Below, piece by piece: positions 18,307 through 62,233 of a stretch of 64,000 nucleotides of DNA (the first letter of the stretch is position 1; each line of letters starts with the position of its first letter). The stretch lies in assembly GCA_002633005.1 (NCBI GenBank), contig NMRA01000355.1, positions 409,560 to 473,559 on the forward strand. The letters run 5' to 3'. The position numbers and the translations under genes are program-made. Below the pieces are notes generated by a model. That model was not told where the DNA came from, did not search any database, and saw only the letters and a program-made list of their open reading frames with translations. Source of the DNA: Phoronis australis (Eukaryota; Animalia; Phoronida).

Positions 18307-21168
18307 AGCAACTTGACGGTGAGGAACAACGGTTGGCGTCAGAACTACATTGGAGAAACAAATCTGAAGACCATGAATATTAAATCACTCAATGATTATT
18401 TCACACCTGGTGAGAACTGGTTCAGTGACACTGTTGTCGTTAGGGGTGTGGAGTTCGACAGTGCTGCGCCGTTTGCTTGCAAAACGCCTCTTGGAAGACC
18501 TGACAGACTTGAAAGACAAGGCATAGAATTGATAAAAACACCCAAACACATGGCTGCAATATGCGAATGTGAAACCGCCGTTAAGGAGGGTTATAACTTC
18601 GATCGCGTATTGACGGTTACAACCAAACTCCGTGGGGATGATCAGCTTTTTGAAAAGTTCAGACAGCTCAGAGCATATAATCAGGCTAAGGTAGACTCGC
18701 GCAAGAAGTACATTCAGGTTATCCGTAATGTAGTGGATGAGTTCTTACCACAACTGAGTTTTCACACGGATGACGCAGCAACTCATGACATTAAAAAAGA
18801 GATGTTGCGGTTGCCGACTTTGGTTGTCGTTGTACTGAAACCGATATTCAGTTTGAATAATGATTTTATTTGGGACACTATAGATGAGATGATATCTGAA
18901 TCCATATTGACATCCGATGGAGGGCATAATTTGCTTGTGGTCATTTCCATCGTGGCCCTTCTCAGACTCGTAATGTACTGTAGTAAAGAAAGACAGCACG
19001 AAGTGTTCGTTTTATTTGGAAACTCAAACTCATCTGAGCTGGGAAAATCTACCGTTCCAGGATATAACAGATACAAGCACTTGGTTATTCGATATTATCA
19101 TTCAATGTTACCATTAGCTAATTTTGTAAGAAGTAAACAGTTAGTAGAGGCACGTACAAAACGACAAATAGATGACATGTTTTATGAAAGAAATCATTTA
19201 ACAGAAGGTTTAATTGAATTATACTGCCTCTCCAACGAACGTGCCAGAGAACAATTTTATGCTCACATTGAATCAGTTTCTGCAAATCCACACAAAATAG
19301 AAGGGGAGGACGTAGTAGTTCAGCACAAAGGAAAGGATATTTTCTGTGACCACACAAACAGTACAGTATGGGAGTGCCTCTTCAATATCGGTAATACCTA
19401 CGAGACAGAACAAAAGTTCGAAGAAGTTTTGAAATATAACTTGCATGCTTTCAGACTGATCTCGCAGAAACACGTCACAAATAGCAGACTCCCAGCTCAT
19501 AAGTATGGTGAGCAGGGGATTCGGTCTATTTTGAAGACGATTGAAAGTATGCACGAAATGAACAGTCGCGAGTTGAAGTATAGGGAATATGATGATGATG
19601 AATTTGTGCGCATCACACATATTCTTGTTGCTACCGGGAATGTGTGTTCAAGAATGCCTAGGAACAACTTGGCCTTACAATATCATCAAGAATCACTGAG
19701 CATGAAGAGGAGGATACACGGTGATGGTGATCATCCCAGCATCGCCACAAGTTTGCATAATATTGGGTGTGTGTATGATAAGATGTGTAAGTACGACCTG
19801 GCGTTGCAGTACTATCAAGACTCACTGGGTATGAAGAAGAGAATACACGGTGATGGTGATCATCTCAGCATTGCAATTAGTTTGCATAATATTGGGAAAG
19901 TATACAAGAAGATGTGTAAGCACGACCTGGCGTTACAGTACAATCAAGACTCACTGAGTATGGAGTGGAGGATACACAGTGATGGTGATCATCCCAGCAT
20001 TGCAATTAGTTTGCATAGTATTGGGGATGTATACAAGGACATGTGTAAGTACGACCTGGCGTTACAGTACTATCAAGACTCACTGAGTATGGAGAGGAGG
20101 AAACACGGTGATGGTGATCATCCCAACATTGCCACAAGTTTGCATAATATTGGGGATGTATACAAGGAGATGTGTAAGTACGACCTGGCGTTACAGTACT
20201 ATCAAGACTCACTGAGTATGGAGAGGAGGAAACACGGTGATGGTGATCATCCCAACATTGCCACAAGTTTGCATAATATTGGGGATGTATACAAGGAGAT
20301 GTGTAAGCACGACCTGGCGATACAGTACTATCAAGACTCACTGAGTATGAAGAAGAGAATACACGGTAATGGTGATCATCCCGGCCTTGCAATTAGTTTG
20401 CATAATATTGGGGATGTATACAAGGAGATGTGTAAGTACGACCTGGCGTTACAGTACTATCAAGACTCAGTGAGTATGAAAAGGAGGATACACGGTGATG
20501 GTGATCATCCCAGCATTGCCACAAGTTTGCATAATATTGGGGATGTATACAAGGACATGTGTAAGTACGACCTGGCGTTACAGAACAATCAAAACTCACT
20601 GAGTATAAAGAAGAGAATACACGGTGATGGTGGTCATCCCAGCATCGCAATTAGTTTGCATGGTATGGGGGATGTATACAAGGACATGTGTAAGTACGAC
20701 CTGGCGTTACAGTACTATCAAGACTCACTGAGTATGGAGAGGAGGAAACACGATGATGGTGATCATCCCAGCATTGCAATTAGTTTGCATAGTATTGGGG
20801 ATGTATACAAGGACATGTGTAAGTACGACCTGGCGTTACAGTACTATCAAGACTCACTGAGTATGTTCAGGAGGATATACGTTGATGGTGATCATCCCAA
20901 CATTGCCGCAAGTTTGCATAATATTGGGGATGTATACAAGGAGATGTGTAAGTACGACCTGGCGTTATAGTACTATCAAGACTCACTGAGTATGTTCAGG
21001 AGGATACACGGTGATGGTGATCATCCCAACATTGCCACAAGTTTGCATAATATTGGGGATGTATACAAGGAGATGTGTAAGTACGACCTGGCGTTACAGT
21101 ACTATCAAGACTCACTGAGTATGAAGAAGAGAATACACGGTGATGGTGATCATCCCAACATTGCCACA
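18307..21168 (+). pseudogene. NTase-TPR copy A, exon 2: catalytic region deleted, frameshifted, 11 full TPR units, 3' truncated
   Basis: Acceptor ctcttttcag at 18306. At 18348/18349 the sequence jumps from the equivalent of 43530 to 44181, a 650-bp deletion that is not a multiple of 3 and removes GSLARGDATPYSDLE. The downstream frame is open to a CAG>TAG stop at 20968-20970 in unit 10. The array breaks abruptly at ~21168. Confidence 0.85.
19732..21168 (+). repeat. TPR array A: 11 x 129 bp plus a partial unit
   Basis: CAT CCC (HP) at 19732 and at 21151 = 19732 + 11x129. Unit HPSIATSLHNIGDVYKDMCKYDLALQYYQDSLSMKRRIHGDGD (43 aa). Confidence 0.95.
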
Positions 21169-21523
21169 CTACAAACTTAGACCTACGTCGGTGGTCCGAC
21201 CGGGGTATTGGAATCTGGTCACTATCGGTTTGACGTCATTATCCAATACTGGGGAAGTAGTTTCTGATGCGTATATGGAATAAGCGGTCACTGTCGTTTT
21301 TCTTTAGTTACGTGCTCAGCCACCGTGACCACGCGTCAGTACACAGTAGCACGCGCTTTAGCATTGGTTGATGTAACATCGGCAGTCATTGGTTAGCTTT
21401 ACAACAATATGAAAAAATGGCGGACTATGAACGATTCATCAACTTTATCATGCAAGTGGCGTAGCAGCAACTATTTCGTTTCCGCAGTAATGTTTAATAG
21501 CAGCTTGCTTTTAGCACATACAT

Positions 21524-21707
21524 CAGTGGCGGATCTAGGATACCATATAAGGGGGGCCCAACATGTTGCCTCGCGGAGAATTGTGCAAAGCGCGATTGTA
21601 TGCACAGGTGGCCCGAATGTTGCGGGGCCTGGCGGTGCACTCTATATTTCTTCACGATGTTGCTGTTTAATTTTGCGTGCAGCTGCTCCCCCCTAAATCT
21701 GCTCATG
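21524..21707. mobile_element. hAT-type MITE; inverted relative at 36787-37083, end fragments at ~12905-12944 and ~5230-5285
   Basis: Ends cagtggcggatctagg...cctaaatctgctcatg. The subterminal ataccatat..ggggg..caacatgttgcctcg is the reverse complement of 37033-37083. Confidence 0.65.
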
Positions 21708-60135: not shown

Positions 60136-60138
60136 ACA

Positions 60139-62233
60139 GAGTATGATGAGGAGGATACACAATGAGGGTGATCATCCCACCATTGCCACAAGTTTGCATA
60201 ATGTTGGGGATGTATATAAGGAGATGTGTAAGCACCACCTGGTGTTACAGTACTATAAAGACTCACTGAGTATGAATAAGAGGATACACAGTGACGGTGA
60301 TCATCCCAGCATTGCCACAAGTTTGCATAATATTGGCGATGTATATAAGGAGATGTGTAAGTACGACCTGGCGTTACAGTACTATCAATACTCACTGAGT
60401 ATGAAGAAGAGAATACACAGTGATGGTGATCATCCCAGCATTGCCACAAGTTTGCATAATATTGGGGATGTATATAAGAACATGTGTTAGTACGACCTGG
60501 CGTTACAGTACTATCAAGACTCACTGAGTATGAATAAGAGAATACACAGTGATGGTGATCATCCCAGCATTGCCACAAGTTTGCATAATATTGGGGATGT
60601 ATATAACGGGATGTGTAAGTACGACCTGGCCCTACAGTACTGTCAAGACTCACTGAGTATGGAGAGGAGGATACACGGTGATGGTGATCATCCCAGCATT
60701 GCCACAAGTTTGCATAATGTTGGGGATGTATATAAGGAGATGTGTAAGCACCACCTGGTGTTACAGTACTATAAAGACTCACTGAGTATGAAGAAGAGAA
60801 TACGCAGTGATGGTGATCATCCCAGCATTGCCACAAGTTTGCATAATATTGGGGATGTATATAAGAACATGTGTTAGTACGACCTGGCGTTACAGTACTA
60901 TCAAGACTCACTGAGTATGAATAAGAGAATACACAGTGATGGTGATCATCCCAGCATTGCCACAAATTTGCATAATATTGGGGATGTATATAAGGAGATG
61001 TGTAAGTACGACCTGGCGTTGCAGTACTTTAAAGACTCACTGAGTATGATGAAGAGAATACACGGTAATGGTGATTATCCCAGCATTGCAAGTAGTTTGC
61101 ATAATATTGGGGATGTATATAAGAAGATGTGTAAGTATGACCTAGCGTTACAGTACCAGCAAGACTCACTGAGTATGAAGAAGAGAATACACAGTGATGG
61201 TGATCATCCCAGCATTGCCACGAGTTTGCGTAATATTGGTGATGTATATATGAAGATGTGTAAGTACGACCTGGCGTTGCAGTACTATCAAGACTCACTG
61301 AGTATGAAGAAGAGAATACACAGTGATGGTGATCATCCCAGCATTGCCACGAGTTTGCGTAATATTGGTGATGTATATATGAAGATGTGTAAGTACGACC
61401 TGGCGTTGCAGTACTATCAAGACTCAGTGAGTATGATGAGGAGGATACACGGTGATGGTGATCATCCCAGCATTGCAATTAGTTTGCATAATATTGGGGA
61501 TGTATACAAGAACATGTGTTAGTACGACCTGGCGTTGCAATACTATAAAGACTCACTGAGCATGAAGAAGAGAATACACGGTGATGGTGATCATCCCAGC
61601 ATTGCCATAAGTTCGCATAATATTGGGGATTTATATAAGGAGATGTGTAATACGACCTGGCGTTGCAGTACTATCAAGACTCACTGAGTATGAAGAAGAG
61701 AATACACAGTGATGGTGATCATCCCAGTATTGCCACAAGTTTGCATAATATTGGGGATGTATATAAGGAGATGTGTATGTACGACCTGGCGTTACAGTAC
61801 TATCAAGACTCACTGAGTATGAAGAAGAGAATACCCAGTGATGGTGATCATCCCAGCGTTGCCACAAGTTTGCATAATATTGGGGATGTATACAAGAAGA
61901 TGTGTAAGCACGACTTGGCGTTACAGTACTATCAAGACTCACTGAGTATGGACAGGAGGATACACGGTGATGGTGATCATCCCGACATTGCCATAAGTTT
62001 GCATAATATTGGGGATGTATATAAGAACATGTGTTAGTACGACCTGGCGTTGCAGTACTATAAAGACTCACTGAGTATGAAGAAGAGAATACACGGTGAT
62101 GGTGATCATCCCAGCATTGCCACAAGTTTGCATAATATTGGGGATGTATATATGAAGATGTGTAAGTACGACCTGGCGTTACAGTACTATAAAGACTCAC
62201 TGAGTATGATGAGGAGGATACACGGTGATGGTG
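60139..62233 (+). pseudogene. copy D: orphan TPR array of 16 x 129 bp, no NTase head, four identical nonsense codons and one frameshift
   Basis: First HP codon at 60173. TGT TAG (AAG>TAG) at 60488, 60875, 61520 and 62035; 1-bp deletion at ~61650. Bounded by LINE sequence on the left and by unrelated sequence from ~62234. Confidence 0.9.

What the first reader, a model, noticed from the sequence alone, without database searches (positions are those of the whole stretch)
19732..62233. Code-like variation in the 129-bp repeats: few variable codons on an almost invariant backbone
Seen: across about 44 units in four arrays the DNA backbone, including many silent sites (AAGTACGACCTGGCGTTACAGTACTATCAAGACTCA), is almost constant. 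Changes cluster at unit positions 3 (S/N/D/G/R/T), 6 (T/I/S/A/F), 9-10 (HN/HS/HG/RN/LN/YS/NN), 13 (D/C/K/S/G), 16-17 (KD/KE/KK/KN/NN/DK/ED/MK/NG/QE/YS) and 35-36 (KR/KK/ER/FR/MK/NK/DR). The 3-4 residue spacing of 3/6/9-10/13/16-17 falls on one helical face. Established: that face of TPR helix A lines the ligand groove. Inference: concerted evolution plus diversifying selection is producing a combinatorial binding code, analogous to fungal HET-D/E repeats or TALE RVDs.
Basis: partly seen in the sequence, partly recalled or inferred. Interest (0 to 1): 0.82.

Follow-up and report, generated by a model that had tools for sequence, protein, structure and literature searches.

The report
Variable-groove TPR arrays on AMPylase-like genes
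These are four damaged copies of an invertebrate gene family that joins a predicted protein-modifying enzyme to arrays of near-identical TPR repeats, whose variable residues fall mostly on positions that line the binding groove in solved TPR structures and were likely diversified by selection, as in fungal immune receptors.

Summary
The observation largely holds. Positions 6, 9, 10, 13, 16 and 17 match ligand-contact positions of solved TPRs, and 3 matches a predicted groove position; 35-36 lie on helix B. The same positions vary in transcribed paralogues and in lancelet, annelid and bacterial relatives. Arrays homogenise internally and variable sites reassort nearly freely.

Limits: the backbone is not near-invariant (its amino-acid changes run at about the neutral rate), and all four copies are broken; one stop codon has itself spread through four units. 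Selection evidence is real but modest. Groove dN/dS is about 2, reached by 1 of 540 recombination simulations, but it is not significant once the groove has its own synonymous rate. Nothing shows a TALE-like code.

The repeat regime is published for fungal NLRs. Its pairing with an AMPylase-like enzyme and no NLR ATPase, in animals, was not found in my searches.

The parts
18285..21168 (+). Copy 1: segmental duplicate of copy 2. It lacks 650 bp that include the nucleotidyltransferase motif, which shifts the frame; the downstream frame stays open to a stop in TPR unit 10 (20968).
19732..21150 (+). TPR array 1, 11 units of 129 bp
43467..44301 (+). Copy 2, 5' part: inferred ATG and DUF294 domain (motif at 44052-44096). 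Its last 727 bp recur at 96.7% identity beyond the single N at 44302, likely an assembly join of two haplotypes or paralogues.
44303..46291 (+). Copy 2 enzyme region: DUF294 nucleotidyltransferase with a helical domain and degenerate TPR-like helices; predicted fold closest to DrrA and GlnE
44780..44824 (+). G-x11-D-x-E catalytic motif; G, S, T, S, D and E are invariant in all 47 aligned family members
46292..47887 (+). TPR array 2, 12 units plus a tail; premature stops at 46910 (unit 5, the variable codon 35) and 47801
56045..57345 (+). Copy 3: 5'-truncated and internally deleted; 5 TPR units (56659-57303), the most divergent array (82-83% to the others)
60139..62235 (+). Copy 4: orphan TPR array with no enzyme region. 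It has 15 clean units and one frameshifted unit (61592-61719); the same stop at unit position 20 occurs in 4 clean units (60488, 60875, 61520, 62035).

Best explanation
The arrays are the C-terminal TPR solenoids of four broken copies of a multi-copy, transcribed invertebrate gene family whose N-terminal domain is a nucleotidyltransferase predicted to AMPylate proteins, and the groove-lining codons were likely diversified by selection in the family's working members. Shown: the repeats are 43-residue kinesin-light-chain-type TPRs; units are homogenised within each array and variable sites reassort; variation concentrates at groove positions here, in expressed paralogues and in distant relatives; the enzyme region was under purifying selection until recently. 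Inferred: unequal crossing-over and gene conversion keep the scaffold uniform while shuffling groove residues, so each array has a different binding surface. That surface most likely recognises a variable foreign or non-self protein and brings it to the enzyme, or switches the enzyme on, which then transfers a nucleotide to a target. This would be a sensor-effector defence protein like fungal NLRs with near-identical repeats, but without their ATPase. The window's copies are recent casualties of birth-and-death turnover, so most of their singleton changes are neutral decay on top of an older selected pattern.
For: Position mapping: units align to consensus TPR so that 3/6/9/10/13/16/17 = TPR 33/2/5/6/9/12/13, the positions reported as hypervariable and concave, with 2, 5, 6, 9, 12 and 13 contacting ligand (PMC1261162 passages). 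KLC1-JIP1 contact residues (PMC6214655 passages) map by my alignment to unit 6, 9, 10, 13, 14, 16, 17 and 21, and one position-9 change alters affinity about 37-fold. Selection: M2a vs M1a statistic 24-32, with sites 3, 6, 17, 32, 35 and more weakly 16. Tree-free groove pN over all-site pS is 2.0; 0 of 540 recombining null simulations reached 35 groove steps and 1 of 540 reached the ratio. The real statistic, 26.6, exceeds all 17 simulated values (maximum 16.5). Out of sample: in reads laid on one unit, the nine positions hold 19 non-synonymous and 4 synonymous variant rows against 5 and 9 elsewhere, Fisher p=0.006. In 97 lancelet proteins the top variable positions are 6, 13, 16, 17 and 35; Owenia and bacterial arrays agree. 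Homogenisation: a silent codon-15 mark is in 10 of 11 array-1 units and 0 of 12 array-2 units, and 35 of 43 units have their nearest neighbour in their own array. Enzyme: DUF294 hit, invariant motif, top Foldseek hits DrrA (E 1.3e-7) and GlnE, dN/dS 0.25-0.30 between copies, sense-strand transcripts of the family in 3 of 3 RNA runs.
Against: For shared alleles only, the groove excess over the synonymous rate is not significant (p=0.11), nor is it in arrays 2 or 4 alone. Recombination alone pushed 9 of 17 null data sets past the nominal 5% cut-off, so the nominal p-values are invalid. The simulations under-produced total non-synonymous steps (66-80 against 95), and the groove's share of them was reached in 33 of 90 runs with a neutral groove and a strongly constrained backbone. 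A stop codon has spread to 4 units of array 4, so spread of a variant does not imply benefit. Only 1-2 of about 700 reads per RNA run are 99% or more alike to copy 2, so expression of this locus itself is not shown. No ligand, catalytic activity or immune role was tested; DrrA identity is 13%.
Confidence: 0.6

Rival explanations
1. Relaxed constraint, not positive selection. Groove residues face solvent and drift freely, the scaffold was constrained while the genes worked, and gene conversion multiplies old variants so that they look recurrent.
For: Groove dN/dS is not significantly above 1 with its own synonymous rate. Silent codon-5 and codon-6 changes travel together across arrays. Groove positions are variable across TPRs in general. 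Recombination inflates site tests.
Against: Nulls built on exactly this model gave 18-23 groove steps on average and at most 33, against 35 seen, and a ratio of at most 1.94 against 2.01. Codon 17 keeps four alleles at 13, 12, 9 and 7 of 43 units. Convex-face exposed positions 22, 23, 25, 26 and 30 stay nearly constant.
Confidence: 0.25
2. DNA-level mutation hotspots or multi-base mutations at a few codons create the clustering.
For: Synonymous change is also raised in the groove set (pS 1.35 against 0.86, p=0.21). Nulls with codon-rate variation gave 7 or more hot codons in 7 of 180 runs.
Against: The majority unit's CpGs lie at codons 21, 24 and 39, not at the variable codons. The same protein positions vary in lancelet, annelid and bacterial arrays with different sequences. 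Random hotspots never reached the groove count (0 of 180).
Confidence: 0.06
3. A modular code as in TALEs: each unit reads one element of a periodic ligand (nucleic acid or repetitive peptide) through its variable residues.
For: 39 distinct nine-residue strings in 43 units; nearly independent assortment; regular solenoid predicted.
Against: No ligand is known. Variation is spread over 6-9 positions rather than one residue pair. In KLC1 the peptide is held by residues of several neighbouring repeats. All copies are broken.
Confidence: 0.05
4. Assembly error: collapsed or chimeric short-read assembly of near-identical units produced the variants, stops and mosaics.
For: A single-N join has a 727-bp overlap at 96.7% identity. 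No contig of DNA run X1 spans copy 2's enzyme region.
Against: The same variant bases occur in raw RNA reads of three runs and in X1 contigs. Array-specific silent marks are orderly. Unit order and individual stops remain unverified.
Confidence: 0.04

Closest known systems
Fungal NLRs with high-internal-conservation TPR, ANK or WD repeats (Podospora Pa_2_10340, HET-D/E; PMC4986451, PMC13449251)
   Same: Near-identical repeats, concerted evolution, repeat exchange, selected sites on the concave TPR face (modelled on kinesin light chain), frequent pseudogenes
   Different: No NACHT or NB-ARC ATPase was detected here; the effector is a nucleotidyltransferase; the host is an animal; function is untested
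Kinesin light chain 42-residue TPR domain (KLC1; PDB 7ai4, 6fuz)
   Same: Repeat length class, helix pattern and groove contact positions
   Different: KLC has six fixed, divergent repeats; here there are 5-16 units of 43 residues at 78-85% pairwise amino-acid identity within arrays
DrrA/SidM AMPylase domain and GlnE glutamine synthetase adenylyltransferase
   Same: Predicted fold (TM 0.63 over DrrA) and G-x11-D-x-D/E motif
   Different: 11-13% identity; fused to a TPR array; encoded by an animal multigene family; activity, nucleotide and target unknown
Lancelet and Owenia DUF294-TPR proteins (auto-named TTC28, KLC or 'Protein-PII uridylyltransferase N-terminal domain-containing'), with relatives in Chlamydiae, Rickettsiales and Holosporaceae
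   Same: Same architecture, motif and variable positions; about 30% identity
   Different: Lancelet units are 44 residues and more divergent (mean 55% within a protein); I found no paper characterising the family
TALE repeat-variable diresidues (recalled, no call)
   Same: Near-identical tandem repeats with localised variation
   Different: Different fold; no nucleic-acid ligand or one-repeat-one-base mapping shown

Membership tests
KLC-type (42PR) TPR repeat | Helix-turn-helix TPR with extended helices, about 42 residues | tested here: met
   Pfam TPR_12/TPR_10; aligns to KLC1 with one extra residue per unit; model helices at 2-17 and 21-39, pLDDT 89.8
High-internal-conservation repeats | At least 85% identity over at least 100 residues | tested here: met
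   Identity to each array's majority is 0.87-0.91; my measure, not T-REKS; pairwise values are 0.78-0.85
High-internal-conservation repeats | Positive selection at concave-face sites | tested here: inconclusive
   For. Against: and the shared-allele test
High-internal-conservation repeats | Repeat-number polymorphism among individuals | not testable with these tools
   Needs long reads; arrays differ in length between copies
NLR / STAND receptor | Central NACHT or NB-ARC ATPase | tested here: not met
   No such Pfam or NCBIfam hit in the window proteins; no ATPase among the fold matches with E below 0.001
DrrA/GlnE-type AMPylase | Polymerase-beta nucleotidyltransferase fold | tested here: met
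   All four Foldseek hits with E below 0.001 are DrrA or GlnE; model pTM 0.84
DrrA/GlnE-type AMPylase | G-x11-D/E-x-D/E motif | tested here: met
   Motif as stated in PMC8097203; present in copy 2 and invariant in 47 of 47 rows; deleted in copy 1, absent from copies 3 and 4
DrrA/GlnE-type AMPylase | Transfers AMP to a protein side chain | not testable with these tools
   No assay
TALE-like code | One repeat specifies one ligand element through a fixed residue pair | not testable with these tools
   No ligand known; variation spans 6-9 positions

The most novel reading that the evidence does not exclude
Invertebrates carry an undescribed, expanded family of DrrA-like AMPylases, related to proteins of intracellular bacteria, in which a recombining TPR array works as a re-targetable recognition module. 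This would be a third class of animal AMPylase and a diversified immune sensor-effector system that needs no NLR ATPase.
Probability: 0.3. Interest if true: 0.8.

Novelty: new variant of a known kind. Interest (0 to 1): 0.5.

Why it matters
A 2021 review lists only Fic enzymes and SelO as animal AMPylases (PMC8097203), and a 2015 survey called DrrA-like proteins rare and limited to Legionella (PMC4454073). A transcribed, multi-copy animal family with that fold, an intact motif and fast-diversifying groove residues would extend both AMPylation and invertebrate immune-receptor diversification, and it names specific residues to test. The repeat pattern alone is much less surprising: it is described for fungal NLR TPR arrays and follows from general TPR statistics.

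Tried and rejected
No whole genome is held, so intact paralogues could not be collected or counted. The 13 bacterial loci with DNA gave no high-identity arrays (three arrays at 56-67% nucleotide identity), so no independent dN/dS test on intact genes was possible. A 138-row tree did not finish. A 55-row FastTree put the window enzyme in a 25-row group with lancelet and Owenia rows and apart from all labelled bacterial rows (SH 96), but on a long branch and without a root; I draw no conclusion on donor or direction. The second structural aligner was busy four times, so the fold call rests on Foldseek alone. Nominal codon-model p-values were rejected; only 17 of 24 planned null fits finished. 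Earlier-scan look-ups returned nothing. Literature searches for the enzyme-TPR family found no description; passages of PMC3710099, PMC8195603 and PMC4454073 did not mention it; the library lacks most subscription papers and I read no supplements. The frameshifted unit was left out of all counts, stop codons were treated as missing in the selection tests, and three read-table rows in the duplicated tail were dropped. The run search listed no RNA holder of the exact stretch, which is no evidence either way. The database names KLC, TTC28 and PII uridylyltransferase were rejected as functional labels because they are automatic.
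Full report
Observation. Tandem Repeats Finder shows four 129-bp arrays. Anchoring on the quoted motif gives 43 clean units (11, 12, 5 and 15) and one 128-bp frameshifted unit, which I left out. The nine named positions hold 134 of 236 non-majority residues, and the top six positions are 17, 35, 36, 16, 6 and 3. The backbone is less constant than claimed: 43 of 129 columns are invariant, mean identity is 88.6%, the 36-mer is exact in 14 of 43 units, and positions 40, 32, 28 and 11 vary as much as 9, 10 and 13.

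Host gene. The arrays end genes with a DUF294 nucleotidyltransferase domain. All four copies are broken. Copy 1 lacks 650 bp including the catalytic motif, with a frameshift, and has a stop in unit 10. Copy 2 spans a single-N join with a 727-bp overlap and has stops in units 5 and 12. Copy 3 is truncated and internally deleted. Copy 4 is an orphan array with the same stop in four units. Between copies the enzyme region has dN/dS 0.25-0.30, so the lineage coded for protein until recently. Three RNA runs of the same species label carry sense-strand reads over nearly all of the region, mostly under 95% alike, so they come largely from paralogues or divergent alleles rather than this locus. Of 266 hits, the 120 listed are all lancelet proteins at 28-33% identity. 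A wider search gave 1,571 representatives at E below 0.001. Of 20 looked up, seven carried organism names: lancelet (2), the annelid Owenia (4) and the bacterium Jidaibacter (1); one more was an IMG record without an organism. Thirteen bacterial loci came from Chlamydiae, Rickettsiaceae, Holosporaceae, Bacteroidota and unclassified bins. The organism is therefore most likely an invertebrate animal (inference). The enzyme-region model (pTM 0.84) matches DrrA best (E 1.3e-7, TM 0.63 over the target, 13% identity), then GlnE. The G-x11-D-x-E motif given for these enzymes (PMC8097203 passages) is present and invariant in 47 of 47 aligned rows.

Where the variable residues sit. Alignment to consensus TPR proteins puts unit positions 3, 4, 6, 9, 10, 13, 16 and 17 at TPR 33, 34, 2, 5, 6, 9, 12 and 13. 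PMC1261162 (passages) reports 2, 5, 9, 12, 13, 33 and 34 as the most variable, concave-face positions and 2, 5, 6, 9, 12 and 13 as ligand contacts. I used these eight as a set fixed in advance. The KLC1-JIP1 contacts in PMC6214655 (passages) map through my alignment to unit 6, 9, 10, 13, 14, 16, 17 and 21. The array model has helix A at 2-17 and helix B at 21-39, so 35-36 lie on the helix-B extension. No coordinates were available to say whether they reach the groove edge.

Concerted evolution. Copies 1 and 2 differ by 3.1% in upstream DNA, yet a silent mark is in 10 of 11 array-1 units and 0 of 12 array-2 units; 35 of 43 units have their nearest neighbour in their own array. Of 1,378 informative site pairs, 479 fail the four-gamete test, and 1 of 15 pairs of variable positions is associated. 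The spread of a stop through array 4 shows that this machinery also spreads harmful changes.

Selection, for. My own codon models give M2a vs M1a statistics of 24-32 with sites 3, 6, 17, 32, 35 and more weakly 16; M8 agrees. A tree-free count puts 35 of 95 non-synonymous steps in the groove set (p=8e-5), twice the all-site synonymous rate. In 540 simulations with gene conversion, under six nulls without positive selection, none reached 35 groove steps and one reached the ratio. The neutral null gave about 61 non-groove steps against 60 observed, so the backbone of these copies looks neutral and the excess is in the groove. In 97 lancelet proteins with three or more units, the top positions are 6, 13, 16, 17 and 35, and variability correlates with the window's (Spearman 0.40, p=0.011). 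An Owenia, an unnamed and two bacterial arrays show the same tendency.

Selection, against. Shared alleles alone give p=0.11; arrays 1 and 3 are individually significant, 2 and 4 are not. Nine of 17 null data sets passed the nominal 5% threshold, though none reached the real 26.6. The simulations made fewer total changes than the data. The lancelet comparison is protein only and cannot separate relaxed from positive selection. I put selection-driven diversification in the family at about two in three.

Mechanism. Most likely, recombination keeps the solenoid scaffold uniform and reshuffles groove residues, giving each gene a different binding surface, which targets or activates a nucleotidyltransferase that modifies a protein. 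Repeat dynamics, groove location, fold and motif are shown or predicted from calls. Binding, catalysis and a defence role are inferred from analogy, copy turnover and the family's presence in intracellular bacteria.

Comparison. The repeat regime is published for fungal NLR TPR arrays, with selected sites on the concave face of a KLC-based model (PMC4986451 passages and section 17), and such NLRs are reported in animals too (PMC13449251 passages). Fast divergence of young repeats under relaxed and positive selection is general (PMC5120217 passages). KLC-type repeats are a named 42-residue class (PMC5642895 passages). This gene is not an NLR, since no ATPase was detected. It works like those receptors at the repeat level, with a different effector. 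A TALE-like code (TALE features recalled) has no support. Five searches found no description of this enzyme-TPR family, although databases flag the domain automatically.

Verdict. This is a real feature and a new variant of a known kind. The finding as framed is overstated and lies in pseudogenes; the more interesting result is the AMPylase-like family it belongs to. Interest 0.5.

Noticed in passing
window 22581-28388, minus strand: A run of broken ORFs for one large protein between copies 1 and 2. It has no Pfam family above E 0.04, but Atlas hits of 0.96-0.97 to unnamed clusters from arthropods, molluscs and chordates. It may be a decayed mobile element (my inference).
   Followed up: partly
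window 9049-18348 vs 31558-43530: A long segmental duplication in several blocks, the main ones at 90-96% identity, carries the upstream region of copies 1 and 2.
   Followed up: partly
window 45659-46162 vs 19099-19602: The 168 codons just before the arrays (degenerate TPR-like helices) show dN/dS 1.37 (24 non-synonymous, 6 synonymous) between copies 1 and 2, against 0.30 in the enzyme part.
   Followed up: partly
window 46910: The stop in array 2 falls in hypervariable codon 35; a tyrosine codon appears common there in RNA reads, so the stop may be a by-product of variation at this codon.
   Followed up: no
window 5286-5544 and 55844-56045: A 71-bp tandem repeat occurs twice; the second copy abuts the 5' break of copy 3.
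   Followed up: no
window 63040-63348: Two-copy 158-bp tandem repeat.
   Followed up: no
L002-L011, L013: Bacterial relatives are large proteins, often in tandem, in bins of Chlamydiae and Rickettsiaceae; some carry two enzyme domains (P0161) or an F-box name (P0269).
   Followed up: partly
P0185 (Owenia fusiformis): An annelid relative has 43-residue units like the window's, two enzyme domains and an OTU-domain name.
   Followed up: partly
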